Shown: piece after piece, positions 309-16,103 of the stretch | How positions within the stretch are numbered: the stretch's first letter is position 1 | Layout of the letters: each line of letters begins with the position of its first letter | NCBI GenBank assembly: GCA_020053355.1 | Contig: JAGVNI010000007.1 | Location: 70,838-134,837 of the forward strand | Length of the DNA: 64,000 nucleotides | Reading direction: 5' to 3' | DNA from: an archaeon | GTDB taxonomy: Archaea > Micrarchaeota > Micrarchaeia > Anstonellales > Bilamarchaeaceae | Program-made: the position numbers and the translations under genes | The notes under the pieces: generated by a model | What the model was told of the DNA's origin: nothing | The model's database searches: none | What the model saw: only the letters and a program-made list of their open reading frames with translations

Positions 309-2758
<2,450 letters not shown>

Positions 2759-2760
2759 CT

Positions 2761-4650
2761 TTATATGTCGAGGTTCTTGACCGTGGCGCCATGCTCCTCG
2801 ATGAATGCGCGCCTCGGCTCGACCAGATCGCCCATCAGGAGCGTGAACAGCTCGTCTGCCACGAGCGCATCCTCCACCGTGACCCGCTTCAGCGTCCGCG
2901 TCTCCGGGTTCATAGTGGTCTCCCAGAGCTGGTCGGCGTTCATCTCACCAAGGCCTTTGTAGCGCTGGACGTTGGCATCCCCGCCGACGGCCTTAAGCGC
3001 GTCGGCCAGCTGCGCGTCCGTGTACATGTACTGCACGCTCTTGCCTTTCTGCACCCGGAAAAGCGGGGGCTGGGCGATGTAGAGGTATCCCTTGTCTATC
3101 AGCGCCCTGAAATAACGGTAGAACAGGGTGAGGATAAGCGTCCGGATATGCGAGCCGTCCACATCGGCATCGGTCATGATGATGACCTTGTGGTATCGCA
3201 GCTTGCCCATGTTGAAGTCCTCCTTGAACCCGGCCCCAAGGGACAGGACGATGTTCCGGATTGCCTCGCTGTCGATGATTTTGTGGATTGGGGCTTTTTC
3301 CACGTTCAGGATTTTGCCCCGAAGGGGCAGTATGGCCTGGTAGCGGCGGTCCCTTGCCTGCTTGGAGCTGCCGCCTGCCGAATCGCCCTCCACGAAATAT
3401 ATCTCGCATTTCGCCGGGTCTTCTTCCGAGCAGTCCGCCAGCTTGCCCGGGAGCACGCTGCTTTCGAAGACGTTCTTCCTGCGAATCAGGTCCTTCGCCT
3501 TCTGCGCGGCTTCCCTCGCTTCCATGGAGTTGATGATTTTCAAAGAAATGATTTTCGCGATAGGCGGGTGCTCCTCGCAGTATGTCTTGAAGGCGTCATA
3601 GAACAGGCTGTCCACCGCGCCGCGGATTTCACTGTTGCCGAGTTTCGTCTTGGTCTGGCCTTCGAACTGCGGCTCGGGCACCTTCACGCTGATAATCGCT
3701 GTCAGGCCTTCTATGGCGTCATCCCCGGTAATCTTGTGCTCCTCCTTGACAAGCTTGGCCGATTTCGTATAATCGTTCACGGCCCGTGTAAGCGCGGTCC
3801 GGAATCCGACCACATGCGTCCCGCCCTCAATCGTCTTGATGTCGTTCACGAAGCTGTAGATGCTGTCGCTGTAGCCGTCGGTGTACTGGAGGGCGATTTC
3901 GACTTCCACATGGTCGGTCTTCTTGTTCAGGTAATACGGCTCGTGGAGCTTGTTTCGCGCTTCGTTGATGTGCTTGACGAACTCGACGATTCCGCCTTCG
4001 TAGCAGAACTCCTCCTTCTTCCCGACCCGCTCGTCCGAGAGGGAGATTCTCAGGCCCTTGTTGAGGAAGGCGAGCTCCATGATGCGCTCGCGGAGGTAAT
4101 CGTAATCGAATTCAATCGAGGGGAATATCTGCGAATCGGGCTTGAACGAGACAATGGTCCCCCGCACGGCCGAGTGCGCGCCCACCTTGAATGGCTCCCT
4201 CGGCTTTCCCCTGGCATATCCGATGGTGTGGCACTTGCCGTCCCGGTGAACCTCGATGTCCATCCACTCGGAGAGGCCGTTGACGACGCCCATGCCTACC
4301 CCGTGCAGGCCCCCTGAGACCTTGTATGCCTTCTTGTCGAACTTTCCTCCTGCATGGAGGGCGCTGGCAACCAGCTCCAGGCCGGATTTGCCTGAAGGGT
4401 GCATATCCACCGGGATGCCCCTTCCGTCGTCCTTGATGAGCGCGGAGCCGTCTTTCCGGAGCTCCACCTGTATGTTCTTGCAGTGGCCTGCAAGGGCTTC
4501 GTCTATGCTGTTGTCCACGATTTCGTAGACCAGATGATGAAGACCCCTTTTGGACGTGTCGCCTATGTACATGCCAGGCCTTTTCCGGACCCCGTCCAGG
4601 CCTGTCAGGACCTGTATTTCCTTCGCTGTGTAACCGCTATCCTCAGCCAT
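2761..4650 (-). CDS. gyrB: DNA gyrase subunit B
   Basis: The 629-aa product has a GHKL ATPase N-terminus ([19 protein letters not shown]) and Toprim motifs (EGDSAGGS). It ends 2 nt before the gyrA start. Confidence 0.95.
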
Positions 4651-4754
4651 ACAATTACCACTAGTTCCTTGATGTGAATTTACGTCGTAGAGAATTCAGT
4701 ATTCTTGCCAAAAATATATTGTCTGGGAGGCTTTAAATTGGTATGGTTTTTTAC

Positions 4755-4808
4755 GGCATTGCACACAAAATAATGCCTGCACATAAACTCTTTTGGCTGC
4801 ACATTAAT
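4755..4808. promoter_or_regulatory. Operator-like repeats in the gyrB/island intergenic region
   Basis: An inverted repeat GGCATT-N11-AATGCC lies at 4755-4777. It is followed by a direct repeat of G(C/G)CTGCACAT(A/T)AA at 4776-4788 and 4796-4808. Confidence 0.3.
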
Positions 4809-4865
4809 TAGGCCTTTTTTGACGATAAAGATTTCATTTTATGACCGTTCCCACCTCTCAAAGGC

Positions 4866-4873
4866 TATAAATA
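4866..4873 (+). promoter_or_regulatory. TATA box for a leaderless transcript of the 4896 gene
   Basis: TATAAATA lies 23-30 nt upstream of the ATG at 4896. This is typical archaeal promoter geometry. Confidence 0.45.
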
Positions 4874-4895
4874 TACCTTTTCAAAATATAATTAT

Positions 4896-5603
4896 ATGAC
4901 GGAACAGCTAGCGCAAGTCGATTCCCCCAAATATTGGCGAATTTTTATAACTGCCGCTTCGGAATTTGACATACAAGGCGTTAATCTTCGAGAGGGGATC
5001 TGCAAGCACCTCAAATTACCGGGTCAAGTTTCGAATATCAAAGACGGAGTTGAACTAATTATATACGGAAACAAGATACAAGCAGAAGAAGCGAAAAAAA
5101 GAGTTTATGGCATTTGCAGGGCAATTCATGGTAGTGAAGATGTCGCCGGACTTGATATAACTCTCTCCGAGCGTCTATTTGACTTCGATATTTCCTCAGT
5201 AAAAGTAAATATTCTTCGTTCTGATGACCTACGGGAAATGGTTTGGGGCTTACAAGGGGCGGGAAGGGTCTTTCAGAAACAATTAGAACAAAAAAAGAAT
5301 CAGTGCTTTATTTCAATTACTTCGATTATAGGCTATGCTGTCGATGATGGAAGCAGTATTGCTCTCCTACAAAATCACCAAATCATGCTTCGAGAGATTC
5401 TTCAAGAGACCCCGTTTGATGAAGAGTTGACTAATTGGTTATTCACTTTCTTAGAAAAAATGATTGATAGTGATCGCCCTGGGTTATTAGGACTTATCGG
5501 GGCTCTTGAAAAAGAGACCGACCAATCAATTGAATCGAAGAGTAAGGATTACCAAGAACTTTACAGAAAAATCAAATTGAGGAAGGTAAAAAAGGGAAAT
5601 TAA
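4896..5603 (+). CDS. Hypothetical protein (235 aa), candidate toxin partner of the downstream Panacea-domain gene
   Basis: A complete ORF in the AT-rich island, 58 nt upstream of the DUF4065-like gene. I recognise no family from the sequence. Confidence 0.5.
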   Translation: MTEQLAQVDSPKYWRIFITAASEFDIQGVNLREGICKHLKLPGQVSNIKDGVELIIYGNKIQAEEAKKRVYGICRAIHGSEDVAGLDITLSERLFDFDISSVKVNILRSDDLREMVWGLQGAGRVFQKQLEQKKNQCFISITSIIGYAVDDGSSIALLQNHQIMLREILQETPFDEELTNWLFTFLEKMIDSDRPGLLGLIGALEKETDQSIESKSKDYQELYRKIKLRKVKKGN

Positions 5604-5660
5604 CGCAGGGAAATACACCACCGTAACGTATATTAACTCCTTTCGCCCCATAAAACTAGT

Positions 5661-6092
5661 ATGCGAACCGAGTTGGTGCAGCTCATTGGCGACTATTATT
5701 TTTCAATGTTTGGTGAGCCAGTTAGTGTAGAATCTTTTCAAAAAAGGCTACAATTTCAAAAATTTGTCTACACATTGGCGCACTTCAACATCATCCCAGA
5801 AGCAAAACCCTTATTCAATTGGTATATCCGAGGCCCTTATTCAAGCACAATTATGGATATTGCGTATGAACTTAGGAGTTCGGATATGTCCTTTGAGTCT
5901 AAACCACTTCCATCTGAACTATCCTTTTTTAATGAAATTAAAAATGATTCTCGAAAAATAGAATTATACGCCTCGCTTTTGTTCCTGAAGGATGCAAGGT
6001 ATTCTAAATCCGAGGCCAAAAAGCTGATTTTAATAAGAAAACCAGATTATTCACTCGAAGAAATTGAAGAAATGATTTCTCATATTCGTTGA
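5661..6092 (+). CDS. Panacea (DUF4065)-like antitoxin-type protein
   Basis: The segment FQKRLQFQKFVYTLAHFNI...KPLFNWYIRGPYSS resembles the KLQKLLYYAQ...PLF..W.YGPV core of DUF4065/SocA-like proteins. Confidence 0.5.
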   Translation: MRTELVQLIGDYYFSMFGEPVSVESFQKRLQFQKFVYTLAHFNIIPEAKPLFNWYIRGPYSSTIMDIAYELRSSDMSFESKPLPSELSFFNEIKNDSRKIELYASLLFLKDARYSKSEAKKLILIRKPDYSLEEIEEMISHIR

Positions 6093-6127
6093 ATGCAATT
6101 CGAACAAGCTCGATATGATCTACATTT

Positions 6128-7243
6128 TCATAACTGAGCGGTTGTACTCGGTTTTTTCGTTATTCCGAACAACCCGCCGTCAGATGACAACAAAAAAAGA
6201 CCTTTTTCATTTTCTATCGTCTTCATTTTCACATTAGTTTTCTTATTTTTCAATGCCCCATAGTTTTCATGAACTAGTTTAGATAACACATCCTTGTCTA
6301 TCCCAAAAATGAACTCTGAGTTAGGCATTATGTTGTCAATATCCAGCATATTACTTAGTTTAGAATGCTTTCCACTGCCCACTAATCTTTTTACGAACTG
6401 ATATGTGTTTTCTCCAATAGTGATTCGGTCCATTCCTTCATTGCTAGGTCCCTCTACCCGTAACTCTCTTTTTTCTAATATCCCTGGCAATAACTCTTTC
6501 TTTTTTGGGTAAAGATCGATTAGCTTAGCTTTATACTCTGAATATAACTGATTCCCAATTCTTTCAAAACCAGCATATTTGCATAATCTGGTATAATGTT
6601 TCAATACCTGCAACTCATACCTAGATGATTCACTTTGATCACTTCCTGGGGGGTCAGCAACAACCAGACTTGATCCTAAATCAGCATTGCTGATTAAGGT
6701 TGAAATAACAAATCGAGCTGTAGTTACCGCTGGAAGTAATCTCGCATTCTTTTGTTCTACCCCGGAAGTTATCTGAGTTCTTTGGGTCTTATGATTAAAC
6801 GTTCCTTTGCATTCAAACACCATTTCCCTTCCTTCAGACGTAACTCTATAATCTGGCCTCCTTGAAGACCCCTCAACCTCGCTTATCTCTTCCCAGTTTA
6901 AGTCAAATGTTTTCTGCATAAATAATATCCCAATTCCAACTCCCACTGCTTCGGCTACCCTACGCCTATGTTCAGAACCCATTCGCCTACAGAAGAACCC
7001 CGGTTTATCCAAAAGAAAGCTTCCTAACAGAAATCTGCCGTTATAAAAGTACTCCTCCATGCTGGGTCTGCTTACTGGATAAAGATAACGCCCCGCGGTA
7101 GAAATAAGTTCGAGATAAGTAAAACGAAATTTGTTTTGATGATTGCGAAGACGATGATCAATCGGATCTGAAAATCGTTCTAATGTTAGATCTACCCCCC
7201 TTTCTTTCTTCAATAGCGCTTCAGTTTCGAAATCAAGTTCCAT
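6128..7243 (-). CDS. PD-(D/E)xK nuclease-fold protein (371 aa), candidate defence/restriction effector
   Basis: The motif RRPDYRVTSEGREMVFECKG reads as D...E.E.K. It is preceded by a hydrophobic beta strand (AVGVGIGILFM) and followed by a 220-aa C-terminal domain of unknown function. Confidence 0.55.
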   Translation of the reverse strand: MELDFETEALLKKERGVDLTLERFSDPIDHRLRNHQNKFRFTYLELISTAGRYLYPVSRPSMEEYFYNGRFLLGSFLLDKPGFFCRRMGSEHRRRVAEAVGVGIGILFMQKTFDLNWEEISEVEGSSRRPDYRVTSEGREMVFECKGTFNHKTQRTQITSGVEQKNARLLPAVTTARFVISTLISNADLGSSLVVADPPGSDQSESSRYELQVLKHYTRLCKYAGFERIGNQLYSEYKAKLIDLYPKKKELLPGILEKRELRVEGPSNEGMDRITIGENTYQFVKRLVGSGKHSKLSNMLDIDNIMPNSEFIFGIDKDVLSKLVHENYGALKNKKTNVKMKTIENEKGLFLLSSDGGLFGITKKPSTTAQL

Positions 7244-7312
7244 ATTCTTTCCTCGGTGTCGGTATATTCCAACTTAATTTTATAAATCAGTACCGACGTT
7301 AAGCCTAAAAAC

Positions 7313-7333
7313 TAGTACGTACTAAGTACGTAC
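7313..7333. promoter_or_regulatory. Palindromic operator (TAGTACGTACTA plus a second AGTACGTAC copy) abutting a start codon
   Basis: A perfect 12-bp palindrome at 7313-7324 and a repeat of AGTACGTAC at 7325-7333, directly before the ATG at 7334. Confidence 0.4.
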
Positions 7334-7492
7334 ATGGGAAAAGGGCGAATACAGGTAGAATACGACGATGTAGATAGTCGTGAAGTAAAAGGAATGACGA
7401 AACGTCGTTGCGGCTACGTCTACTTATCGCCAGCATGGATAGACCGAAAGGTGCTGGTTCTATTGTTGCCTGAAAAGGAGATGAAAAAATGA
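7334..7492 (+). CDS. Small protein (52 aa), possible AbrB/MazE-like antitoxin or regulator. Not in the ORF track.
   Basis: MGKGRIQVEYDDVDSREVKGMTKRRCGYVYLSPAWIDRKVLVLLLPEKEMKK. Its TGA stop overlaps the ATG of the next ORF (ATGA at 7489-7492). The operator palindrome lies just upstream. Confidence 0.35.
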   Translation: MGKGRIQVEYDDVDSREVKGMTKRRCGYVYLSPAWIDRKVLVLLLPEKEMKK

Positions 7493-7779
7493 CGAGATCT
7501 ACTACTGAAGAATGGGATCAGAAAAATAGCATATTACTCAAACGCATGCAGATATACGAAATAGAATATCGCGAACGAAATTGTCTCAAGAAGACTGATA
7601 ACCACTTGAAAACAGGATGCCACGAAGTAGGTGGAGTAATCTATTGTCCAGCACTAAAAAAGTCTAAAGCAAGAAAATTCAAAAAAGAGATTGAGCAGCA
7701 GATTGCGCTCGCTTCAACGCTGAGCTCAAATACTTACTCGAATACTACTAGACGAGAAAACCCTCTACCGCTTGATTGA
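7489..7779 (+). CDS. Hypothetical 96-aa protein, coupled to the small upstream gene. Possible toxin.
   Basis: ATGA translational coupling with the 52-aa ORF. It contains C-x11-CH-x7-C. Its 3' end overlaps the convergent 7748..8836 gene by 32 nt. Confidence 0.3.
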   Translation: MTRSTTEEWDQKNSILLKRMQIYEIEYRERNCLKKTDNHLKTGCHEVGGVIYCPALKKSKARKFKKEIEQQIALASTLSSNTYSNTTRRENPLPLD

Positions 7780-8836
7780 GGAGCTCATGCTGCGGACAAT
7801 ATTTACCGACGAAGGTCCCTCGTCTAAGACTTACTGCGCTTTGCTGGAGGGCAAAACGACTTGCCACGGTTTCATAGCTGTATACTGGTTGGTGGAGTTC
7901 ATGCTCGGAACAAAGCTCGTAGATCTGGCCCATCTTCCGTATGTCGATGAAAGGACTGAATCCACTCTCTGAAACAAACTCGTCAGAGGGGTAGCGATTG
8001 GTCTGTTCTTTCCTTGAAAGAAGACCGAGACTAGCCTCATCGAATAGCCGGAGCTTAGTATAGTCCATGTCTCCCCCAGGATTTTGGTATTTTCTTATCG
8101 ATGTACTCTTGATGCCGAAGAAAGATAGCAGGCTCGGATAAGATGCTGGGATCCCTTTCCTTCTATACAGTCGTTCTACACCGCTCATATGCACCCATAG
8201 GGATTTTTTTGAGAATTCACGTAGAAAGACGAACTTCTCGTAGTTTCCAGTAAGGGAACGGTGTCTGATGTCGAGGCTCACGATGCCTGCGGCAAGGGCA
8301 GCTTCGATTTTATTCTCGAATGCCTCATCGTTATCACTTGCCATATCAATCAATACTCTTGGGAGTTTATCCTTTGACCGAATGGCGTCGATACAGTTCC
8401 CGATGTCTACCTCTAGCGATTCCACCGAACTCTCTGGTGATCGCTCGGGTATTGTCACGATGTCCAGTTCGCTCATCAACTGGCCACGGACATAGTTTCC
8501 AACAAACGTGTCGTCAAGGTCTCTCCATTTCGTTCCTGCACCAGGTTGTGCGCGTTGTAGAGTATGAGAAGCAACGCGAGAAGATTGGCCAGCAAGGCGC
8601 AAGTTTAATTCTTGGGAAAACGAGTCGTCGCTTCCCTTGACATTGAGTCCGAGCCGATTGAGATCATCGTCGATTATCTCGAATAGTTCATGAGGATATT
8701 CATAAGAGGTCTTTCCGAAACAGTGACTAAGACCTTTCTTGTAGCCATACTCGGTTGGCGTCAGTGCCCGCGTAGGCAACAGAACATGATTCGTTGGGGT
8801 TTCGAGAACCCATCCACCATCAATCAACTTCGTCAT
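7748..8836 (-). CDS. Hypothetical 362-aa protein, possibly a TGT/DpdA-like TIM-barrel. Weak.
   Basis: The start is taken at MTKLIDGG, whose ATG overlaps the stop of the upstream 75-aa gene (ATGA). GGWVLETPTNHVLLPTRALTP loosely resembles the hG.veTP.FMPVGT motif of tRNA-guanine transglycosylase-family enzymes. There is a C/H cluster near the C-terminus. Confidence 0.5.
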   Translation of the reverse strand: MTKLIDGGWVLETPTNHVLLPTRALTPTEYGYKKGLSHCFGKTSYEYPHELFEIIDDDLNRLGLNVKGSDDSFSQELNLRLAGQSSRVASHTLQRAQPGAGTKWRDLDDTFVGNYVRGQLMSELDIVTIPERSPESSVESLEVDIGNCIDAIRSKDKLPRVLIDMASDNDEAFENKIEAALAAGIVSLDIRHRSLTGNYEKFVFLREFSKKSLWVHMSGVERLYRRKGIPASYPSLLSFFGIKSTSIRKYQNPGGDMDYTKLRLFDEASLGLLSRKEQTNRYPSDEFVSESGFSPFIDIRKMGQIYELCSEHELHQPVYSYETVASRFALQQSAVSLRRGTFVGKYCPQHELLNQAVEGFLV

Positions 8837-9060
8837 ATTTTGTTCCCTCCTTCTTTCTTTTTTTGTATCGAAACTAATATACATGCAGCACCTATCGCTA
8901 CGACAGTTCCACGAGTGAATCGTTGGACCTCCACATTCGATTTTTTCAGAGTTTCTAATACCTTTTCGTCCAGTGCAGACAGCCCGGAATGAAGTAATTC
9001 GGATTGGGCAGTTTCGAGGATCTTCTTCTCTTCTTCGGAGACCAATATCGTAGTTACCAT
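8833..9060 (-). CDS. Small 75-aa protein with a C-terminal hydrophobic helix (tail-anchored)
   Basis: Complete ORF. The hydrophobic segment is VVAIGAACILVSI. It lies 46 nt downstream of the RHH gene and is translationally coupled to the 362-aa gene. Confidence 0.45.
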   Translation of the reverse strand: MVTTILVSEEEKKILETAQSELLHSGLSALDEKVLETLKKSNVEVQRFTRGTVVAIGAACILVSIQKKKEGGNKI

Positions 9061-9106
9061 GAATGTCAGAAATATATTCCTATATACATTATATAAACAT
9101 ATCTGT

Positions 9107-9253
9107 TCATTTTTTATTATCAGCCAACCAGCTTTCTATGGCTGTTCCAATAGCTTTGGAAATGCTGCCCTTTTTCAGTCCAAATACGAGTGCAGCTTTC
9201 TTTCTGAGGCGATTCTCAAGTTCATCGGGTAAAACGATTTGCATTCGTCCCAT
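9107..9253 (-). CDS. Ribbon-helix-helix (CopG/antitoxin-type) DNA-binding protein, 48 aa
   Basis: MGRMQIVLPDELENRLRKKAALVFGLKKGSISKAIGTAIESWLADNKK is a classic RHH beta-strand plus two helices. The listed 110-aa ORF has an implausible hydrophobic N-terminal extension, so I take the start at the internal MGRM. Confidence 0.6.
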   Translation of the reverse strand: MGRMQIVLPDELENRLRKKAALVFGLKKGSISKAIGTAIESWLADNKK

Positions 9254-9273
9254 AAACACATAACTACATATAC

Positions 9274-9282
9274 ATTTATAAT
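9274..9282 (-). promoter_or_regulatory. TATA box for the RHH-led operon
   Basis: On the minus strand TTATAAAT lies about 22-29 nt upstream of the RHH ATG, in an AT-rich repeat-containing spacer. Confidence 0.4.
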
Positions 9283-9395
9283 CATTAATATATGAGATAT
9301 ACACATATACACATGCCGAGGCGATTGAAATAACGATGGGTTGCATTAGTTGTGGTTCCTCTGACATCAAAATGAACGGCAGGGCGCTATAAACG

Positions 9396-9779
9396 CTATT
9401 TTTTCCGTGACTCGTTCTCCCTGACCCTGTACCGGACAATCCTTTTCACCAGGCCAAACGGTATCGGTTCATCAATCGGGAACTGGACGGACCCTTTCGC
9501 CTGCTTATAAGGGGAAAGCTCATTTTTGAAGACGGCAATCGCCGACGGGGTGGGGTAAAACCCGATATGCTTCTTAAACGCTGCAAAATGCACAAGGTTG
9601 CCGTTCTGCCTGAATGTCGGTATCCCGTACCTAATCGTTTCTTCGGCATTGGGTGCGGACTCCCTGATGGCCAGCCTGAGTTTTCTTAATATACCCTGGA
9701 TTTCTGGCGGAAATGCGGCGATATACCCGTCCATGGTTTTTTGCTGTTTTTTTGGCATTTCCATACCTATTGCTCCCAT
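9396..9779 (-). CDS. DUF1801 (YdhG-like) family protein
   Basis: MPKKQQKTMDGYIAAFPPEIQGILRKLRLAIRESAPNAEETIRYGIPTF...LVHFAAFKKHIGFYP matches the DUF1801 pattern. The true start is probably at MPKK, near 9758. Confidence 0.65.
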   Translation of the reverse strand: MGAIGMEMPKKQQKTMDGYIAAFPPEIQGILRKLRLAIRESAPNAEETIRYGIPTFRQNGNLVHFAAFKKHIGFYPTPSAIAVFKNELSPYKQAKGSVQFPIDEPIPFGLVKRIVRYRVRENESRKK

Positions 9780-9831
9780 GGCGGCATACTGCGGCCGGTA
9801 TTGCGATAAAACACGGGCCCGGGCGGTTTTT

Positions 9832-12123
9832 TCACCCGGCCTCGAAAATCTTCATCTTGGCCTTCCACTGCTCGACCGCGTCCTTGAACTTGTCCTTGCT
9901 TACGAACAGGATGGAATCCAGCAGGCGGTTGCGCATGATGACTATCACCGTCTTGTCGCCGACAGCCGCGAAGCTCTGCGGCTGGTGCTGGCCGAGGTTC
10001 TTCGCCAGCGCGTGCATGTACGAGAACAATTTCATGCCGAGGGCGGTCATCACCGTGCTCCCCCCTTCGGAGAATTCCGCGAGGATGACCTTTTCCTGCT
10101 TCATGATGATGGCGCCCTTAAGGAGGCCCTTCCCGAGCATTTCCTGGACGAGCTGGTCCGGCGACACCTTCCTCTTCTTTATGACATCGCGCTCGAAACT
10201 GAGGCCTTCCACCCCGGCCTCCTTGGCATACCTGCCGAGCGCCCAGCCGCGCAGTGATGCGGGCACGGTAACCAGGGAGGTCACATAGACCTCGTTCTGC
10301 TCGTCGAGCATCTTTGTGATGCTGTCTTTCCACCTGGGCCAGTTGTCGTCGGCCAGCTTCTTCCTTCCCTTCAGGCTGGATACCGCATTCTCGACCCTTG
10401 CCAGATAATCATCGATCAAAGCCTTGCTCCTTGCGGTCATGTCCTTTGTGAGTATGTCTATCTTCTCCGATTTCACGGTCGTGAAGACGTCATATTCCTT
10501 GCTGATGTCGAAATCCTCCTTGGCGTATTCTTCCACCAGCGATTCAAGCTCCTTCATCCTGTCTTTGAGGGAGGCGGCCTTGGCGAGGAACATGTCCTTC
10601 TCCTGCCGTATCACGATGCCGTATGCCCGCTCAAGCACGGTAATCTTCGCGAAATTCTCAAGGGCGAAATACGCCATCAGGACGCCTATCAGCGTCATTC
10701 CTATCGCTATCACGCCCATGTCGTTCTTCATGAGGAAATCCAACGACTCAAGGAGGGGGGGAATGCTCGCAGGCGGCGTCGCGACGACTGTCGCCATGTA
10801 ATACCCGGCCGCCAGCATCACCACGGCGACGACCATATCAGCCTTCCAGCGCACGTCCGTCCTGCCGAACGCCTTCCGGAAGCCTGTCGTGAGGCTTGCT
10901 CCGGCGACCCTTTCGCTAATCATCGTGAATGCGAGCACGATGATGTTGTATATGAACAGGAGGACAGCCAGCGTAACGCCTACTGCAGCGCCGAAGGCCA
11001 GGAAATAGTTCTTCAGGATGCCGTTGAATGCCAGGAGGATGAAATTCGTCGGCGCGAGAGGAAGGAGGTTTATGTGCTTGACCCGGATGTCCGGCGTCCG
11101 CATCCCTGCGATGACGTTGTCCGGCGCCTCCTGGGACTGGAACTCGTAATATAACTGGTATCCCTCCTCGTTCGACTTTGCCGACGTCCAGTTGACAATG
11201 GAATATCCGCCTGACTCGGTTGCGGAGATGGACTGTATCGATGAGATGCTTTCGGTGTCGAGCACCATGTTCGACGGGACCTTGTCCGTGATGCCCATTC
11301 CCGCCACCTCGACTCCGATGTCCTGCCCGCCGCTTGTAGATACGGGCTTGACCGTAACCAGGACGTGGTAGCGGTAGCTGGCGTTCTGCACCGTGTACGT
11401 GCCGACCTTCCGGGTGGCTTCAAGCATGTACGGGATGCCGAAATCCGAGTGGGTGCACAGCCCGAACTCGTCACTCGAGTAGATGGGATTCGCGTTTATC
11501 TCCGCGATGCGGTTGATTATCAGCCTGGTCTTGCCGAGGAACTCGTCCCTCTCCGTATCAGTGCCCTCGCGGAGCGTGAGCACCATCCTGCGGGCATCAA
11601 GGAGAAGCGAGCGTATCTCGTTGTTCGCCTTCACGTATGATATCATGGACCCTGCAAGGACCTCCTCGTCCGATGCGGCGATTTTCCTGCATTTCTGCGA
11701 TGCGCTCGAACATAGCTTCGTGCATGTCGAGACATCCGAGCAGACCACGTTGCTGAGGCCGATATTGGCGCTGCATGCCGTGTCTGCCTGTATCCTGGAT
11801 TTGGAGAACTCGTCAAGGCTCTGGTCGGCTACCAGGAGGTCGACATCTGTCAAATTCGGGTTGACCGAAGTATAGACCGCAGAGGTGTCCACAGTGACAG
11901 TGACCTGCCTCTGGATTGTCATGCCGGCTTCCTTGTTGGAAACCGGCGAGAAGTCATAAATCAAATAATCCGCGCTACCGTCCCCGTCCAGGTCGGTAGG
12001 CTGGGCGCTGGTCACCTGCTCGGCCTTTCCCCCTTGGTACGGGCTTTCACCAAGGCAGCCAAAACCCATCAGGAATATTGCAAACAATAAGACTATGCAC
12101 CGGCGCATGAAGTGTGTTTCCAA
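9832..12123 (-). CDS. Large membrane protein (763 aa): signal peptide, extracellular domain, multi-TM core, cytoplasmic coiled-coil tail
   Basis: The N-terminus has a hydrophobic signal sequence (RRCIVLLFAIFLMGFGC). Several TM helices lie mid-protein and the C-terminal 250 aa are charged and helical. I recognise no family. Confidence 0.55.
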   Translation of the reverse strand: METHFMRRCIVLLFAIFLMGFGCLGESPYQGGKAEQVTSAQPTDLDGDGSADYLIYDFSPVSNKEAGMTIQRQVTVTVDTSAVYTSVNPNLTDVDLLVADQSLDEFSKSRIQADTACSANIGLSNVVCSDVSTCTKLCSSASQKCRKIAASDEEVLAGSMISYVKANNEIRSLLLDARRMVLTLREGTDTERDEFLGKTRLIINRIAEINANPIYSSDEFGLCTHSDFGIPYMLEATRKVGTYTVQNASYRYHVLVTVKPVSTSGGQDIGVEVAGMGITDKVPSNMVLDTESISSIQSISATESGGYSIVNWTSAKSNEEGYQLYYEFQSQEAPDNVIAGMRTPDIRVKHINLLPLAPTNFILLAFNGILKNYFLAFGAAVGVTLAVLLFIYNIIVLAFTMISERVAGASLTTGFRKAFGRTDVRWKADMVVAVVMLAAGYYMATVVATPPASIPPLLESLDFLMKNDMGVIAIGMTLIGVLMAYFALENFAKITVLERAYGIVIRQEKDMFLAKAASLKDRMKELESLVEEYAKEDFDISKEYDVFTTVKSEKIDILTKDMTARSKALIDDYLARVENAVSSLKGRKKLADDNWPRWKDSITKMLDEQNEVYVTSLVTVPASLRGWALGRYAKEAGVEGLSFERDVIKKRKVSPDQLVQEMLGKGLLKGAIIMKQEKVILAEFSEGGSTVMTALGMKLFSYMHALAKNLGQHQPQSFAAVGDKTVIVIMRNRLLDSILFVSKDKFKDAVEQWKAKMKIFEAG

Positions 12124-12159
12124 GGTGTTCTTTTAAAATCTTGCCGCGGACGCTAATAT

Positions 12160-13440
12160 ATGCAGAAGGTGTTAGCGCGGGTCTTGCCGGCGATAAAACC
12201 GAGCCCCGAAGAGCTTTCGGCGGAACTGGCTTTCGCTGAGCTCATGGTCGCGCACATCCGGGACAACGCCCCCAAGGGATGCGATGTGGTCCTGACCGGC
12301 TCGATGGCGAAGCGCACGTTCCTTCGCGACAAGAGGGACATCGACATCTTCGTCCTCTTTAACCGCTCGGTGCCGAGGGATTCGCTGGAATCCTTCATCA
12401 AGGACATAATGGCATCATCATTCCCTGGCCTGGGCTACCAGTTGAGCTACGCGGAGCATCCGTACTCGCGCTTCCATTTCGAAGGGAGGCGGATAGACCT
12501 GGTCCCTGCGTACAAGATAACGAAAGCAGCGGAGCGAATCAGCTCTGTGGACCGCTCGGTCCTCCACACGGGATTCGTGAATTCCCGCCTGAAAAAAAAG
12601 CAGGTGGACGACGTATTGCTCCTCAAGCAGTTCCTCCGGGGAAACGGGATTTACGGGGCGGAAATCAAGATAGAAGGATTCTCCGGGTACCTCTGTGAAC
12701 TCCTGGTAATCAGGTACGGCGGCTTCCCGGCCCTTCTGAAAGCTGCGGCCAAATGGAAGGCGGGGGCCCCAGCCGGATTATTCATCGATATCAAGAAATA
12801 CTACAAGATTGCCGAAGCCAAGGAAGCGGCGAAACGCTTCTGCAGTCCCCTAGTCGTTATAGACCCAACCGACAAGAACCGCAATGTCGCCGCGGCGGTC
12901 TCTGAAGCCAACCTTAAGCTGTTCATCTCGCTAAGCAAGGCATTCATAAAGAAACCCGCCGAGGGGCACTTCTTCAAGAAACCGGTCACATTCGATGAGC
13001 AGGCCGCAAGGGCATCGAAGGGGAAAAAGCTCTTCCTGCTTTCCATGCCCCGGCCGGACATCGTGGACGATATCCTCTGGGGCCAGTTGCACAAGATGCT
13101 CGGGCAGCTGAAATCCCATCTGAAGGAGTTCGGCCCCAAGGCAATCCTGGCAGACGATTCGCGCCATCTTGTCCGCCTCGCCATCATATTGGAACATGAC
13201 CGCCTTCCGGATAAGATGCTCGTTGCGGGCCCGCCATTGGCAATGAAGAAGCATGTCATTGAATTCAAGAAGCGGCACAAAAAGGGGAAATTCATTATCA
13301 AGAAGAAGAAGCTCTTCGCCGAGGTGAAGCGCCCGGTCGTAAAGGCCGAGGACGCGATTCATGCGTTCTTCCGCGCGTTCGCGACGACGCGTTCGCATCT
13401 CGCGTACCCGGAAGAGATGCTTGTCATTGAGCGAAAATAA
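12160..13440 (+). CDS. cca: CCA-adding tRNA nucleotidyltransferase, archaeal class I
   Basis: 426 aa. A Pol-beta-like NTase motif (GSMAKRTFLRDKRDIDIFVLF) and the overall layout match archaeal CCA enzymes. Confidence 0.85.
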   Translation: MQKVLARVLPAIKPSPEELSAELAFAELMVAHIRDNAPKGCDVVLTGSMAKRTFLRDKRDIDIFVLFNRSVPRDSLESFIKDIMASSFPGLGYQLSYAEHPYSRFHFEGRRIDLVPAYKITKAAERISSVDRSVLHTGFVNSRLKKKQVDDVLLLKQFLRGNGIYGAEIKIEGFSGYLCELLVIRYGGFPALLKAAAKWKAGAPAGLFIDIKKYYKIAEAKEAAKRFCSPLVVIDPTDKNRNVAAAVSEANLKLFISLSKAFIKKPAEGHFFKKPVTFDEQAARASKGKKLFLLSMPRPDIVDDILWGQLHKMLGQLKSHLKEFGPKAILADDSRHLVRLAIILEHDRLPDKMLVAGPPLAMKKHVIEFKKRHKKGKFIIKKKKLFAEVKRPVVKAEDAIHAFFRAFATTRSHLAYPEEMLVIERK

Positions 13441-13481
13441 TAAAGTTCCATTTATATTCATTTCTATACACATCCAGTCAC

Positions 13482-14306
13482 ATGGCTTCTGGTAACAAAC
13501 AGGTGCGCACAGGAACCGCCCTTCCGGCTTTCCAGGGCTTCGACCCGGGGAAGGCTTCGGAGCGGCTAAGCTCGTTTTGCGATAAGTTCCATATCGATCC
13601 GGAAACAATCCGGCGCATCATCGTAGAACCCGTCCTCCAAAGCGGGGAAGTAATCTCATTCATGGGCGAAGCCCCTCTCTACGCATACGCCTGCGGGACG
13701 CAGACCGATGCCATAACGCGGATGGCCGAAAAAGTGATGGTTGCCTCAGGCATCGCCCAAAATCCCGAAGCAAAGGATGCCAAGCTTGAACTCTGGCGGA
13801 TTCTCCGGGATTTCTCGGTCGGCTACGGCATCCCGGTGGAGGAGCAGCTCGGGCTGATTACAAAAAGGGGATTGCAGGACAAGTTCAATTTCCAATCCGT
13901 TCATACGCTGACCGCCATGCGCTTCATGATGGACCTAGCCGGCAGATTGGAAGGGCATCTTCCATCCTTCGGCAGGATAAAATCCGCTTACATAGACATC
14001 TGGCCCGAGAACATGGGGCCGGAAACGTTTTCCGCCGTCTTCAACATGTTCATCCAGGGGCAGGTGCCCACAACCCAGGAAGACGGCTCGGCCCTCAACG
14101 TCTTCCCGACGCATTGCCGCTCCCTGACAACCCCGCCCCTCAAACCGGATACTCCGTATATCGTATCCACAACCAACCTATCGGGCGCCTATTCCTTAGC
14201 GAGCATCCTGCCCCCGGAGGAATCGCTTGGCATAAGGCTGGACCTCCTTCTCTGGAGGAAGGCCGACACGCTCATAATAGCGGATGTCACAGGCTCATTC
14301 GCGTAG
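13482..14306 (+). CDS. Hypothetical protein (274 aa)
   Basis: Complete ORF with codon usage typical of the flanks. No recognisable family. Confidence 0.5.
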   Translation: MASGNKQVRTGTALPAFQGFDPGKASERLSSFCDKFHIDPETIRRIIVEPVLQSGEVISFMGEAPLYAYACGTQTDAITRMAEKVMVASGIAQNPEAKDAKLELWRILRDFSVGYGIPVEEQLGLITKRGLQDKFNFQSVHTLTAMRFMMDLAGRLEGHLPSFGRIKSAYIDIWPENMGPETFSAVFNMFIQGQVPTTQEDGSALNVFPTHCRSLTTPPLKPDTPYIVSTTNLSGAYSLASILPPEESLGIRLDLLLWRKADTLIIADVTGSFA

Positions 14307-14327
14307 CGTTTCTGTTATCGCCCGGTT

Positions 14328-14846
14328 TCATCCCGCAAGGTTGCTGATGCCGACAATGAAGACTATCCAGGCTCCCCAGTAAATCAGCGAAGGGAGCAGC
14401 ACAGCCACGGCCGCCTGCCAGAATCCCAGCTTGTTTATCTCACGCAGGCCCCGGAAAGCATTGCCGAAGGACACCAGTGGCGTAAGCTCGCCGACGCAAG
14501 GCACCCACGCAAGAAGAAGGGACGGCGTCGAAGCGTAGAAATACACCTGGAATGTGTCTGCCATTGGGCGTTTCCCACCGAAAAGGCCAATCAGGAAATG
14601 CGATATCACCGGGAGGAAAAACCCGATGCCAAGCGCATATGTGAATGTGCCTAGGGCCATTGCGATTAGGGAGATGAAAACGTCCCTGGTTGCGACGAAT
14701 GCAAGCGCAAAATTCGCCACGCTTCCGAAAACGAGAAGGATGATGAAATATGTGAGCGAGGAAACGAATCCTTCCTTAAGCAGCCCAACGAATTCCTTCT
14801 CCTCGGTGCTCCATATCGTTTTCTTCAGCTTCTCAAGGAATCCCAC
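14328..14846 (-). CDS. Yip1-like small integral membrane protein
   Basis: 172 aa with 4-5 predicted TM helices and a soluble N-terminus, consistent with the Yip1/DUF1282 family. Confidence 0.45.
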   Translation of the reverse strand: MGFLEKLKKTIWSTEEKEFVGLLKEGFVSSLTYFIILLVFGSVANFALAFVATRDVFISLIAMALGTFTYALGIGFFLPVISHFLIGLFGGKRPMADTFQVYFYASTPSLLLAWVPCVGELTPLVSFGNAFRGLREINKLGFWQAAVAVLLPSLIYWGAWIVFIVGISNLAG

Positions 14847-14855
14847 CGTCTCACC

Positions 14856-16103
14856 TCAGAGCATCACTCTTTCGCCAGGAAGCGGGGCAACCGACTTGAA
14901 CCCGTGCTCCTCTTCCAGCTCTTGCGCGAAATCCTCGGGCTTGTCGCCGTGGACGAGGAGGATTTTCTCAGGGTTCGCCTTCTTGATGAACCTTAGGAGG
15001 TCGGTGCGCCCGGCATGCGCTGACAAATCCAGGTATTCGACCGGCAAGTCGACCGCCAGTTCCTGCCCGTCTTTCACGATATTGCCGTTGTTCTGGAGCA
15101 TCCAGCCGTTCGTCCCTTCCACGCAGTAGCCCGTGAAGATGATTTTCGATTCTGAGTTCGCATTGAAGATATAGTTCAGGACCGGCCCGCCGTTCAGCAT
15201 GCCCGCGGTGGATATTATCACCGAAGGCTCGCGAAGGGCAGCCTTCTTGTCCGGGATGGACTGCACCAGCGTCACGCTCCGGACCGCCTTCTTGAACGAG
15301 TCCGGGTCTTTTAGGTATTTGGGGTACGCCATGTAGATGCGCGACATCTCGCGGCCCATGCCGTCGACGAAAATCGGTATCTCCCGGTCGTAGCTCCGGA
15401 GAAGCGCAATCAATTCCTGCGTCCGGCCGAGGGCGAAAGCCGGGAGCAATACGTTCCCGCCGTTTTCCAGCGTCTCATAGATGCTCTCCATGAACTTCTC
15501 TTCCGCCTGCCTCCTCGGCGGGTGGTCCCTCTTGGCATACGTGCTTTCAATCATGAGGGTGTCCACGCCTTCGGCGAACTTCGCGCCCCTGTGCATGAAC
15601 GTCTCCTCGATTTTGAAGTCGCCGGTGTAAAAGAAGCTCTTGCCCCTGTGCGTTATCTCCACCATGGCCGCGCCGCTGATGTGGCCTGCGTCATACAGCT
15701 CGATTTTCGTCTCCCCGCTGTTTATCGGATGCCTGTATAAGAGCGGGTTCCAGAATTTCTGCGCCTTCTTGAGGTGCCCCAGGCGATAGGGCAAATCGTC
15801 CCCCATGATTTTCATCGAGTCCATCCAGAGGACTTCGCAGATGTCCTTCGTGGGCGGGGTCGAGTACCATCGTATCCGGTTCTGGACGTAAAGGGCGGGG
15901 ATGCAGCCCGAATGGTCCAGGTGCGCATGCGAGAGCACCATCATGTCCGGCTTGACCGGAGTCTCGAGGGGGAACTTGGCCTGCCCGCTCTCGTCGAATA
16001 TCTTGATTCCGTAGTCGAGCATGATGTTGCGGTCAGTATGAAGCATGAACGCGCTCCGCCCGACTTCCCTTGAGGCGCCCAAACATTCGACGAATGTCTC
16101 CAT
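14856..16103 (-). CDS. beta-CASP / metallo-beta-lactamase ribonuclease (aCPSF2/RNase J-like)
   Basis: The HxHxDH motif (SHAHLDHSG) plus downstream beta-CASP motifs. 415 aa, with no KH domains. Confidence 0.8.
   Translation of the reverse strand: METFVECLGASREVGRSAFMLHTDRNIMLDYGIKIFDESGQAKFPLETPVKPDMMVLSHAHLDHSGCIPALYVQNRIRWYSTPPTKDICEVLWMDSMKIMGDDLPYRLGHLKKAQKFWNPLLYRHPINSGETKIELYDAGHISGAAMVEITHRGKSFFYTGDFKIEETFMHRGAKFAEGVDTLMIESTYAKRDHPPRRQAEEKFMESIYETLENGGNVLLPAFALGRTQELIALLRSYDREIPIFVDGMGREMSRIYMAYPKYLKDPDSFKKAVRSVTLVQSIPDKKAALREPSVIISTAGMLNGGPVLNYIFNANSESKIIFTGYCVEGTNGWMLQNNGNIVKDGQELAVDLPVEYLDLSAHAGRTDLLRFIKKANPEKILLVHGDKPEDFAQELEEEHGFKSVAPLPGERVML

What the first reader, a model, noticed from the sequence alone, without database searches (positions are those of the whole stretch)
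4651..9395. AT-rich 4.7-kb island of defence/TA-like genes inserted beside gyrB
Hand counts give about 43% G+C inside the island (26/60 at 5101-5160) against about 60% in the flanks (36/60 at 10021-10080). The island sits between the gyrB start and a native-looking DUF1801 gene. It holds at least eight short genes in mixed orientation. None belongs to a housekeeping family. They include a Panacea-domain protein, a PD-(D/E)xK nuclease, an RHH regulator, and a palindromic operator with a tiny coupled gene pair. I see no integrase or flanking tRNA, so the mode of acquisition is unclear. The combination of modules may be an undescribed composite immunity locus.
Basis: partly seen in the sequence, partly recalled or inferred. 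Interest (0 to 1): 0.8.

Follow-up and report, generated by a model that had tools for sequence, protein, structure and literature searches.

The report
Foreign gene island beside archaeal gyrB
A 5-kb stretch of low-G+C foreign DNA next to gyrB in a tiny symbiotic archaeon (Micrarchaeota) sits at a strain-variable hotspot and stacks several small toxin-antitoxin/defence-like cassettes, one of them built around an undescribed relative of the base-swapping enzymes TGT/DpdA.

Summary
Window 4753-9831 has 41.7% G+C against 56.6% elsewhere, and GC3 of 35-49% against 75-80%. It is the only stretch below 50% G+C in the 64 kb. The closest genome (Micrarchaeota PMV_4.13, GyrB 92% identical) lacks all of these genes. 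At the same junction it has a different AT-rich insert encoding a SoFic-type Fic defence protein, so this is a variable cargo hotspot. The DUF1801 gene is part of the variable segment and is not native. No integrase, att repeats or nearby tRNA were found.

The contents are near-orphans that resolve into cassettes found separately in other metagenomic contigs:
- B: an orphan 371-aa protein with a PD-(D/E)xK motif, otherwise unverified.
- C: a conserved cassette, RHH, then a 75-aa protein, then a 362-aa TIM-barrel protein. It converges on a 96-aa gene that follows a DUF2080 protein with a conserved 19-bp palindromic operator.

The 362-aa family (at least 75 clusters) is a remote TGT/DpdA relative. 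The window copy has lost the zinc cysteines.

Verdict: a real defence/TA-type accretion island, and probably not one integrated system. Function is inferred.

The parts
4753..9831 (.). Strain-variable, low-G+C cargo segment (5.08 kb) between the conserved gyrB upstream region and the stop codon of the conserved 763-aa membrane protein gene
   Evidence: blastn against L001: window 359-4751 matches L001 14291-9899, and window 9832-13424 matches L001 8430-4839. Breakpoints were read from the alignments. G+C is 41.7% against 56.6% for the rest of the window.
4896..5603 (+). o235: 235-aa protein with an N-terminal acylphosphatase-like domain and a conserved helical C-terminal domain. It is the partner (candidate toxin or effector) of o143.
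   Evidence: Pfam Acylphosphatase: E 0.016 for the window copy, 2.9e-5 (24.7 bits, above the 22.5 cutoff) for the L084 homologue, and 5e-4 for L082. NCBIfam acylphosphatase models reach 4.7e-6. The signature residues R32 and N47 are invariant. It sits directly upstream of an o143 homologue in 4 of 4 contexts.
5661..6092 (+). o143: 143-aa protein with the DarG-C-terminal-domain / Panacea fold (candidate antitoxin or sensor). JGI names it 'YwgA'.
6128..7243 (-). o371: orphan 371-aa protein with a readable PD-(D/E)xK-type motif (P130-D131 ... E144-C-K146). JGI calls a shorter 310-aa version from M62.
   Evidence: The motif is read directly from the translation. The only database relative is itself. 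There are no PDB, Pfam, PADLOC or NCBIfam hits; the PHROG 843 resolvase model gives E 0.25 over residues 125-152. There are no viral or plasmid relatives.
7315..7333 (.). Perfect 9+1+9 palindrome GTACGTACT-A-AGTACGTAC abutting the o52 start codon; candidate operator
   Evidence: Coordinates. It is conserved exactly apart from the central base in L081, while the surrounding upstream DNA has diverged.
7334..7492 (+). o52: 52-aa DUF2080-family small protein (candidate DNA-binding regulator), coupled by an ATGA overlap to o96
   Evidence: NCBIfam NF033496: 17.7 bits for the window copy (cutoff 22), 23.2 for the L081 orthologue and 32.6 for L095. The ATGA overlap at 7489-7492 is shown.
7489..7779 (+). 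o96: 96-aa basic protein of unknown fold, convergent with o362 and overlapping its 3' end by 32 nt
   Evidence: Homologues sit in the same convergent position in L081 (56% identity), L082, L087-89 and L094. On the contig of P0010, for which no DNA was available, a 108-aa gene lies in the same convergent, overlapping position.
7748..8836 (-). o362: 362-aa TIM-barrel protein, a remote member of a TGT/DpdA-like family that lacks the zinc cysteines (SESGFS in place of CxCxxC)
8833..9060 (-). o75: 75-aa protein with an RHH-like N-terminus and a hydrophobic C-terminus, coupled by an ATGA overlap to o362 (candidate antitoxin or adaptor)
   Evidence: It lies directly upstream of the TGT-like gene in L081, L082, L087-89 and L094. 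The overlap was read. The RHH-like fold is inferred from the sequence pattern only.
9107..9253 (-). oRHH: 48-aa ribbon-helix-helix protein heading the o75-o362 operon
   Evidence: Pfam RHH_5 gives E 0.023. The L088 homologue (61% identical) gives RHH_6 at 5.4e-5 and 56B_RHH at 8e-4, all below cutoff. It occupies the same position upstream of o75 in L087-89.
9254..9330 (-). Promoter/operator region of oRHH: a TTATAAATG TATA-like box flanked by GTGTATAT-type repeats
   Evidence: The same layout is seen upstream of the homologous RHH gene in L088 and L089. Its function is inferred.
9396..9779 (-). DUF1801 gene, which is part of the variable segment and has intermediate composition
   Evidence: Pfam DUF1801 at 4e-16. 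It is absent from the 22-kb syntenic region of L001. G+C is 49.5% and GC3 is 60%.

Best explanation
Window 4753-9831 is horizontally acquired cargo. It sits at a strain-variable hotspot between the gyrB promoter region and the 3' end of a conserved membrane-protein gene, in a roughly 57% G+C Micrarchaeota (DPANN) genome.

It is an accretion of small cassettes of the toxin-antitoxin/defence type that move independently. It is not one co-evolved machine.

- Cassette A (o235 + o143) works like a PanAT/DarTG-type pair. This is inferred. The 143-aa DarG-CTD/Panacea-fold protein would bind and hold in check, or act as sensor for, its 235-aa acylphosphatase-like partner.
- Cassette C works like a doubly autoregulated TA-like module. 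This is inferred. An RHH protein would repress its own promoter through GTGTATAT-type repeats. The 75-aa protein (RHH-like N-terminus, hydrophobic tail) is translationally coupled to, and probably binds, a 362-aa TGT/DpdA-superfamily TIM-barrel enzyme. That enzyme's likely substrate is a nucleic-acid base, by exchange or excision. A convergent, 3'-overlapping operon (DUF2080 protein + 96-aa protein) would be repressed through the 19-bp palindrome at its start codon.
- o371 is a lone, possibly PD-(D/E)xK, nuclease-like orphan.
- DUF1801 is an older or separately acquired passenger.

What is shown: the composition shift, absence from the sister genome with alternative cargo at the same site, the cassette architectures and their conservation, the fold of o143, and conservation of the palindrome.

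What is inferred: toxicity, neutralisation, the DNA-binding targets, the enzymatic activity of o362, and any role in immunity.

The confidence of 0.6 is for the whole statement. The acquired-island and hotspot part alone is about 0.9. The TA/defence mechanisms are about 0.4-0.5.
For: Foreign origin and hotspot:
- Composition.
- The sister genome L001 (GyrB 92% identical, flanks 79-84% nucleotide identity) has none of these genes. It carries a 1.47-kb, 36-43% G+C insert at the same junction.
- That insert encodes a Fic+HTH protein: Pfam Fic 4.7e-19 and PADLOC SoFic 9.5e-46.

Independent mobility of the cassettes:
- A occurs without C in L084, next to a gene for an ATPase with a HATPase_c_3 domain and a Dam-type methyltransferase gene.
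- C occurs without A in L081, L087-89 and L094.
- o371 is unique.
- The homologous contigs have 31-47% G+C.
- Other Micrarchaeota are about 35% G+C.

Cassette A:
- Fold of o143.
- DUF4065 is stated to be homologous to the DarG C-terminal domain in PMC13621843.
- Weak DarG-model hits in P0007-9.
- A two-gene unit with 35-63 nt gaps is conserved in 4 of 4 contexts.
- Acylphosphatase signatures in o235.

Cassette C:
- The architecture is conserved from 72% down to 28% identity of o362.
- ATGA overlaps.
- Palindrome conservation.
- RHH promoter similarity.
- TGT-superfamily link.
Against: - No island protein hits any PADLOC model. Only DUF1801 passes a curated family threshold.
- No toxicity, neutralisation or DNA-binding data exist.
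- The o362 model is only moderately confident (pLDDT 61).
- A and C are adjacent in both the window and L082. Distant zinc-type TGT-like genes are preceded by another DarG-CTD-like protein. This argues for some functional coupling and against full independence.
- The mode of insertion is unknown: no integrase and no att sites.
Confidence: 0.6

Rival explanations
1. The island, or at least cassettes A and C, is a single multi-gene immunity or addiction system. In this reading a DarG-CTD/Panacea-like protein controls a TGT-like nucleic-acid-modifying effector, and the other small genes are regulators.
For: - A and C are directly adjacent in L082 and lie 1.2 kb apart in the window. That is 2 of the 3 informative contexts of the very rare A family, which has only 4 clusters in 5.8 billion.
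- In L090, L091 and L093 the zinc-type TGT-like genes are preceded by a 157-183-aa protein. It hits the PADLOC DarG C-terminal region (1.8e-5 to 4e-4) and PDC-M19A (1e-11 to 1e-13).
- That protein shares the K..F.K...F.[FW]Y..GPYS motif with o143.
Against: - C occurs without A in L081 (a tRNA lies directly upstream), L087-89 and L094.
- A occurs next to a different cassette in L084.
- The relative orientation of A and C differs between the window and L082, and o371 is inserted between them only here.
- hhalign between the two DarG-CTD-like families gives only 8-12% probability.
- o143 is always tightly paired with o235, not with the TGT-like gene.
Confidence: 0.2
2. The segment is the decayed remnant of an integrated plasmid or virus of a low-G+C archaeon. 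The small RHH/DUF2080 genes would be plasmid copy-control or partition-type regulators rather than TA components.
For: - A relative of o362 (P0010) lies on a contig with a D5_N/DUF5906 primase-helicase and many small ORFs.
- The cassettes abut tRNA-Leu and tRNA-Ile in L081 and L082.
- DDE transposases flank the cassette in L087 and L089.
- The RHH homologue weakly matches the 56B_RHH model, E 8e-4. From my own knowledge, not checked here, that model derives from the CopG-like ORF56 protein of the Sulfolobus plasmid pRN1.
- o52 belongs to a 'transposase-associated' family.
Against: - There is no integrase, replication, capsid or packaging gene in the island.
- There are no att-like flanking repeats.
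- There are no relatives in 2.9 million viral contigs for o362, o143 or o371, and none in plasmids for o143 or o371.
- The insertion is not at a tRNA here.
Confidence: 0.15
3. Cassette C is a DNA (or tRNA) modification module of the DpdA type. In this reading it marks nucleic acid with a 7-deazaguanine-like base, for self-marking or anti-restriction, and is not a toxin-antitoxin-like module.
For: - The best structural match of o362 is the DNA preQ0 insertase DpdA.
- The family shows TGT-type N-terminal and zinc motifs.
- TGT homologues are used as DNA modifiers in Dpd and in the BRC systems related to BREX (PMC10164549, PMC12839542).
- One relative lies next to an MmeI-type restriction-modification gene.
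Against: - There are no preQ0-synthesis genes, no DpdB/DpdC homologue and no restriction partner in the island or in any homologous locus examined.
- The zinc cysteine triad is lost in the window subfamily, and two family-conserved Asp positions ('IPD', 'FGID') are E and K in the window copy. PMC10164549 reports the zinc site and three Asp residues as invariant in TGT/DpdA.
- Tight coupling to tiny RHH-type genes and a convergent partner is atypical of modification enzymes.
Confidence: 0.15
4. The low-G+C stretch is native DNA, for example a fast-evolving or highly expressed region, and was not acquired.
For: None beyond the lack of mobility genes.
Against: - It is absent from the sister genome, which has different cargo at the same junction.
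- GC3 is 30-45 points below the flanking genes.
- Homologues of the cassettes occur on unrelated low-G+C contigs.
Confidence: 0.02

Closest known systems
PanAT toxin-antitoxin pairs (Panacea/DUF4065 antitoxins; PMC8832971, PMC10440598) and the DarG C-terminal antitoxin domain of DarTG (PDB 7YK3)
   Different: The Pfam DUF4065 model does not detect it at any E-value. The motif is GPY rather than GPV. The partner is an acylphosphatase-like protein, and a text search of the main text of the two PanAT papers found no mention of acylphosphatase. The host is a DPANN archaeon. Toxicity and neutralisation are untested.
TGT superfamily: bacterial/archaeal tRNA-guanine transglycosylases and the DNA preQ0 insertase DpdA of the Dpd system (PMC10164549)
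   Different: All Pfam TGT hits are below threshold and limited to the C-terminal region. The window subfamily lacks the three cysteines. The three invariant Asp residues cannot be identified, and the family motifs 'IPD' and 'FGID' read 'IPE' and 'FGIK' in the window copy. There are no DpdB/DpdC, preQ0-synthesis or restriction genes. Instead the gene sits in a five-gene cassette of tiny regulators.
Defence islands / integration hotspots with alternative cargo
   Same: A fixed junction between conserved core genes holds different AT-rich defence/TA-type cargo in closely related genomes: a SoFic-type Fic gene in one and this island in the other.
   Different: There is no integrase, recombinase, tRNA or att site at the junction. 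The setting is a reduced DPANN genome. None of the window's cargo matches a catalogued defence system.
Classical type II TA operons with RHH or AbrB-type autoregulating antitoxins (for example CopG/RelB/MazE-type)
   Same: The cassette has small upstream DNA-binding genes, 4-nt ATGA overlaps with the downstream gene, and palindromic or repeat operators at the promoter or start codon.
   Different: Two convergent, 3'-overlapping operons are conserved as one unit. The putative toxin is a 362-aa TIM-barrel enzyme, and an extra stand-alone RHH gene precedes the pair.

Membership tests
Panacea / PanA (Pfam DUF4065, PF13274), tested for o143 | Match to the DUF4065 HMM at the gathering threshold (the operational definition used in PMC8832971) | tested here: not met
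   No DUF4065 hit for o143 or its homologues P0007-9, even at E<=10.
Panacea / PanA, tested for o143 | Fold: a central helix surrounded by further helices plus a small beta-sheet, homologous to the DarG C-terminal domain | tested here: met
Panacea / PanA, tested for o143 | Conserved GPV motif in strand beta2 next to the central helix | tested here: inconclusive
   An invariant G58-P59-Y60 lies in strand 58-60, after helix 26-41. The motif is GPY, not GPV.
Panacea / PanA, tested for o143 | A conserved two-gene locus with an intergenic gap of at most 100 nt in two or more species | tested here: met
   The o235-o143 pair has gaps of 57, 40, 35 and 63 nt in the window, L082, L084 and L086.
Panacea / PanA, tested for o143 | Neutralises the toxicity of the partner protein | not testable with these tools
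   This needs co-expression toxicity assays.
TGT / DpdA superfamily, tested for o362 | (beta/alpha)8 TIM-barrel core most similar to TGT/DpdA | tested here: inconclusive
TGT / DpdA superfamily, tested for o362 | Match to Pfam TGT (PF01702) at the gathering threshold | tested here: not met
   No hit for o362. Relatives score at best 23.4 bits against a cutoff of 26.3, and only on profile positions 260-351.
TGT / DpdA superfamily, tested for o362 | Structural zinc site CxCx2Cx22H (invariant in TGT and DpdA, PMC10164549) | tested here: not met
   o362 has S-E-S-G-F-S at the aligned position, with His315 retained. 27 of 50 family members do have CxCxxC...H.
TGT / DpdA superfamily, tested for o362 | Three invariant active-site aspartates (DpdA D95, D130, D256) | tested here: inconclusive
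   No reliable residue-level alignment to TGT was obtained. The conserved family motifs 'IPD' and 'FGID' read 'IPE' and 'FGIK' in the window copy.
Dpd system | Presence of DpdB/DpdC, preQ0-synthesis genes and restriction genes | tested here: not met
   No such families were found in the island or in the homologous loci.
PD-(D/E)xK nuclease, tested for o371 | Catalytic D ... (D/E)xK motif | tested here: met
   P130-D131 and E144-C-K146 are read in the translation. This is a sequence pattern only.
PD-(D/E)xK nuclease, tested for o371 | Significant match to a PD-(D/E)xK family profile, or the alpha-beta-beta-beta-alpha-beta fold | tested here: not met
   No Pfam, NCBIfam, PADLOC or PDB hit. PHROG 843 gives E 0.25. 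With no homologues, motif conservation cannot be assessed.
Ribbon-helix-helix (CopG/Arc/MetJ), tested for oRHH | Match to an RHH family profile | tested here: inconclusive
   RHH_5 at E 0.023 for the window copy. RHH_6 at 5.4e-5 (24.2 bits against a cutoff of 27) for the 61%-identical L088 homologue.
DUF2080 family (NF033496), tested for o52 | Score at or above the NCBIfam cutoff (22 bits) | tested here: inconclusive
   The window copy scores 17.7 bits, below the cutoff. The L081 orthologue (79% identical) scores 23.2 bits and the L095 relative scores 32.6 bits.
Acylphosphatase (PF00708), tested for the o235 N-terminal domain | Score at or above the Pfam cutoff (22.5 bits) and the catalytic Arg and Asn signatures | tested here: inconclusive
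   The window copy scores 16 bits, the L084 homologue 24.7 bits and L082 20.7 bits. Invariant R32 (xQGVxxR) and N47 (GxVxN) are present. The identity of these as the catalytic signatures is recalled from knowledge of the family.
Horizontally acquired genomic island / hotspot | Compositional deviation plus absence from a close relative that has conserved flanks | tested here: met
Horizontally acquired genomic island / hotspot | Integrase or recombinase, flanking direct repeats, or a tRNA target | tested here: not met

The most novel reading that the evidence does not exclude
A previously undescribed family of TGT/DpdA-like TIM-barrel enzymes, with at least 75 clusters at 50% identity, is the effector of a new class of toxin-antitoxin/defence cassettes. 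Some of the contigs carry archaeal marker genes.

The enzyme is recurrently partnered with DarG-CTD/Panacea-fold proteins or with small RHH-type proteins. It would act by exchanging or excising a base in DNA or tRNA. The DarG-CTD-like partner would inhibit it by nucleic-acid mimicry, as in DarTG.

The window would then hold a zinc-less variant of this system together with its Panacea-like accessory pair.
Probability: 0.2. Interest if true: 0.8.

Novelty: new variant of a known kind. Interest (0 to 1): 0.5.

Why it matters
DPANN archaea have tiny genomes and depend on hosts, and their mobile and defence gene content is poorly known. This locus shows a fixed chromosomal junction beside gyrB that exchanges AT-rich cargo between close relatives. 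One relative carries a catalogued defence gene (SoFic). The other carries a stack of near-orphan cassettes.

Two of the cassettes extend known themes into uncharted sequence space:
- A protein with the Panacea/DarG-CTD fold that the family's own HMM cannot see, paired with an acylphosphatase-like protein.
- A conserved five-gene cassette around a TGT/DpdA-like barrel that is absent from defence catalogues.

If the TGT-like protein is an active base-exchanging or base-excising effector, it would add a new biochemical mechanism to TA/defence systems. It would also give a testable link between tRNA/DNA deazaguanine enzymology and conflict systems.

Tried and rejected
- Pfam, NCBIfam, PHROGs and PADLOC scans of all island proteins gave nothing significant except DUF1801.
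- PDB sequence searches for o371, o362 and the o143 profile returned noise.
- Word-indexed homology searches found only 0-3 relatives each.
- Viral-contig scans for o362, o143 and o371 found none.
The scan with the 10-sequence alignment found nothing.
- Plasmid tblastn for o143 and o371 found none.
- The AFDB fold library was unavailable.
- An Rfam scan of the island found no RNA family.
- Flanking direct repeats were rejected as att sites. GGTTTTTT occurs at both edges but also twice inside.
- The stem-loop potential of the palindrome as single-stranded DNA is not better than shuffles (z -1.1). It is better read as a duplex operator.
- A profile of only the zinc-containing TGT-like members did not improve the PDB alignment (E 0.44).
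- Homology between o143 and the 157-183-aa partner of zinc-type TGT-like genes could not be established by hhalign (8-12% probability) or by a PDB sequence search. It rests only on both families hitting DarG models.
- The sigma-70 promoter/terminator scanner was not used because the host is archaeal.
- Literature searches for YwgA and DUF4364 gave nothing useful.

Full report
**Observation.** The composition shift is real and large.
- Positions 4651-9395 have 40.6% G+C. The left flank has 57.6% and the remaining 54 kb have 56.6%.
- With 1-kb windows, the only windows below 50% G+C in the whole 64 kb lie between 4251 and 10000.
- The tetranucleotide distance to the rest of the window peaks at 0.69 inside the island, against a median of 0.21.
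- Third-codon-position G+C is 35-49% for the eight island genes. It is 78-80% for gyrA, gyrB and the 763-aa membrane protein gene, and 75% for the CCA-enzyme gene.
- The only tRNA in the window is at 46705.
- No integrase-like family was found.
- No convincing flanking repeat was found.

**Host and the comparative test.** GyrB finds a Micrarchaeota MAG (PMV_4.13, locus L001) at 92% amino-acid identity.
- Window 359-4751 aligns with L001 14291-9899, and window 9832-13424 aligns with L001 8430-4839, at 79-84% nucleotide identity.
- Between these blocks the window has 5.08 kb. L001 has 1.47 kb of unrelated DNA with 36-43% G+C.
- That DNA encodes a single 441-aa Fic+HTH protein: Pfam Fic 4.7e-19 and PADLOC SoFic 9.5e-46.
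- The breakpoints are at about 4752, which is 100 bp upstream of the gyrB ATG, and at about 9832, the stop codon of the membrane-protein gene.
- The junction is a hotspot with alternative cargo.
- The DUF1801 gene (Pfam 4e-16) is absent from L001 and has intermediate composition. It belongs to the variable segment.
- A more distant Micrarchaeota genome (L002) has 35% G+C overall, so low-G+C relatives are plausible donors.

**What the genes are.** All eight island ORFs are near-orphans.
- o371 has no relative but itself among 5.8 billion clusters.
- o362 has three relatives and o143 has three.
- Gene contexts of those relatives resolve the island into cassettes.

**Cassette A: o235 (4896-5603) + o143 (5661-6092).** The pair is conserved, in this order and with 35-63-nt gaps, in L082, L084 and L086.
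- The AF2 model of o143 is confident (pLDDT 93.5).
- PMC13621843 states that DUF4065 (Panacea) proteins are homologous to this DarG domain.
- PMC8832971 describes Panacea as a helical domain with a small sheet bearing a conserved GPV motif. o143 has an invariant GPY in strand 58-60.
- Three o143 homologues weakly hit the C-terminal part of the PADLOC DarG model (E 0.012-0.023).
- The Pfam DUF4065 model finds nothing, even at E<=10.
- o143 therefore has the Panacea/DarG-CTD fold but is not a member by the family's operational definition.
- Its partner o235 has an N-terminal acylphosphatase-like domain. The L084 homologue scores 24.7 bits against a cutoff of 22.5, and the window copy gives E 0.016. 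NCBIfam reaches 4.7e-6.
- The Arg and Asn signature residues are invariant in o235, and it has a strongly conserved C-terminal domain of unknown type.
- Acylphosphatase is not mentioned in the main text of the two PanAT papers searched.

**o371 (6128-7243, minus strand).** This protein shows a textbook-looking PD...ExK pattern (P130-D131, E144-C-K146). It has no family, PDB, viral or plasmid match and no homologues with which to test conservation. The nuclease call remains an unverified motif reading.

**Cassette C (7315-9330).** On the minus strand lie oRHH (48 aa), then o75, then o362. o75 and o362 overlap by ATGA. The start of o362 is confirmed by the identical database entry. Converging on them on the plus strand are o52 and then o96, also with an ATGA overlap. 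o96 overlaps the 3' end of o362 by 32 nt.
- The layout o75 then TGT-like, converging on o96, recurs in L081 (o362 72% identical), L082 (46%), L087-89 (31%) and L094 (28%). On the contig of P0010 (no DNA available) a convergent, overlapping 108-aa gene follows the TGT-like gene.
- The RHH gene recurs in L087-89 at 61% identity, with a similar TATA box and GTGTATAT-type repeats.
- o52 belongs to the DUF2080 family. The orthologue scores 23.2 bits and the L095 relative 32.6 bits against a cutoff of 22.
- The perfect 9+1+9 palindrome at 7315-7333 abuts the o52 ATG. It is conserved in L081 while its surroundings have diverged.

**The 362-aa protein.** An exhaustive HMMER search found 75 relatives of about 370 aa.
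- The AF2 model (pLDDT 61, pTM 0.66) is a beta/alpha barrel.
- The discriminating evidence is at the sequence-family level. 27 of 50 members carry CxCxxC...H.
- This region gives sub-threshold Pfam TGT hits, at best 23.4 bits against 26.3.
- It also aligns with the zinc motif of arcTGT and QTRT1 (family profile E 0.015).
- The N-terminus resembles the TGT 'gaR...TP' hairpin.
- PMC10164549 reports the zinc site and three Asp residues as invariant in TGT and DpdA.
- The window subfamily has lost all three cysteines (SESGFS), and the family motifs 'IPD' and 'FGID' read 'IPE' and 'FGIK'.
- I therefore file o362 as a remote, atypical relative of the TGT superfamily, at roughly 65% confidence for the family. 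It is not a TGT or DpdA, and its activity is unknown.
- No preQ0, DpdB/C or restriction genes accompany it anywhere examined.

**One system or several?** The evidence points both ways.
- Cassettes A and C are adjacent in L082, and lie 1.2 kb apart with C inverted in the window. A lies next to a different cassette in L084: an ATPase with a HATPase_c_3 domain, a 263-aa protein and a Dam-type methyltransferase.
- C lacks A in L081, L087-89 and L094.
- Distant, zinc-type TGT-like genes (L090, L091, L093) are preceded by a 157-183-aa protein and a membrane protein.
- That 157-183-aa protein hits PADLOC PDC-M19A (1e-11 to 1e-13) and the DarG C-terminal region (1.8e-5 to 4e-4).
- It shares a K..F.K...F.[FW]Y..GPYS motif with o143, although hhalign gives only 8-12% probability.
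- The evidence thus favours independently mobile cassettes. It leaves a real possibility (about 0.2) that DarG-CTD-like proteins and TGT-like enzymes form a recurrent functional partnership.

**Mechanism (inferred).** The island behaves like an accretion of TA/defence-type cassettes at a hotspot.
- In A, the DarG-CTD/Panacea-like protein would bind or sense for the acylphosphatase-like partner.
- In C, the RHH and DUF2080 proteins would autoregulate two convergent operons through the repeat and palindrome operators. o75 (RHH-like N-terminus, hydrophobic tail) would bind the TGT-like enzyme. That enzyme would act on a nucleic-acid base.
- None of this has been tested. PADLOC recognises none of the island proteins.

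**Novelty and score.** A defence/TA island at a variable hotspot is a known kind of thing. The specific contents are undescribed variants:
- a Panacea-fold protein invisible to the family HMM, with a new type of partner;
- a five-gene TGT-like cassette absent from defence catalogues;
- all of this in a DPANN archaeon.

Interest is 0.5. The locus is solid and has a testable lead, but function is entirely inferred and the key enzyme assignment is weak for the window copy.

Noticed in passing
window 13425-14859: A second strain-specific difference from the sister genome. Two genes of normal G+C, a 274-aa ORF at 13482-14306 (+) and a 172-aa membrane protein at 14328-14846 (-), are replaced by about 95 bp in L001.
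   Followed up: partly
L001 8436-9898: At the same gyrB junction the sister genome carries a SoFic-type Fic+HTH gene (PADLOC SoFic 9.5e-46). Upstream of it is a duplicated element, CTACTAATGAATACTAATGATTA...AATTAGTAGAT, which contains inverted CTACTAAT/ATTAGTAG arms.
   Followed up: partly
L090 154-2322; L091 3607-5786; L093 2600-4828: Zinc-type members of the TGT-like family sit in a conserved three-gene operon: a 157-183-aa DarG-CTD-like/winged-helix protein (PADLOC candidate PDC-M19A, 1e-11 to 1e-13), then a membrane protein, then the TGT-like protein. In L091 the operon lies next to an MmeI-type restriction-modification gene and a RelB-like gene.
   Followed up: partly
L084 1839-5890: Cassette A is followed here by a different module. 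It comprises a 78-aa protein, a 569-aa protein with a HATPase_c_3 domain, a 263-aa protein, a Dam-type methyltransferase (PADLOC MTase_II 6.8e-100) and a MazE-like gene. It looks like an uncharacterised restriction-modification-like system.
   Followed up: partly
L081 4-88; L082 50-125: tRNA-Leu(GAG) and tRNA-Ile(GAT) genes lie immediately beside the homologous cassettes in other genomes. This suggests tRNA-proximal insertion there, unlike in the window.
   Followed up: no
L087 4189-5415; L089 449-1675; contig of P0010: DDE_Tnp_1 transposases flank cassette C in distant relatives, and a D5_N/DUF5906 primase-helicase lies on the contig of P0010. In addition, o52 belongs to a family named 'transposase-associated'.
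   Followed up: no
window 7244-7300: One AT-rich TATA-like element (TTAATTTTATAAATC) lies between the divergent starts of o371 (7243, minus strand) and o52 (7334, plus strand). It could serve both genes (read). JGI calls o371 from an internal Met (310 aa), but a GAGGA Shine-Dalgarno-like site precedes the longer start.
   Followed up: no
window 9832-12123: The conserved 763-aa membrane protein that bounds the island has no Pfam or NCBIfam match at all. It is 80% identical in the sister genome.
   Followed up: no
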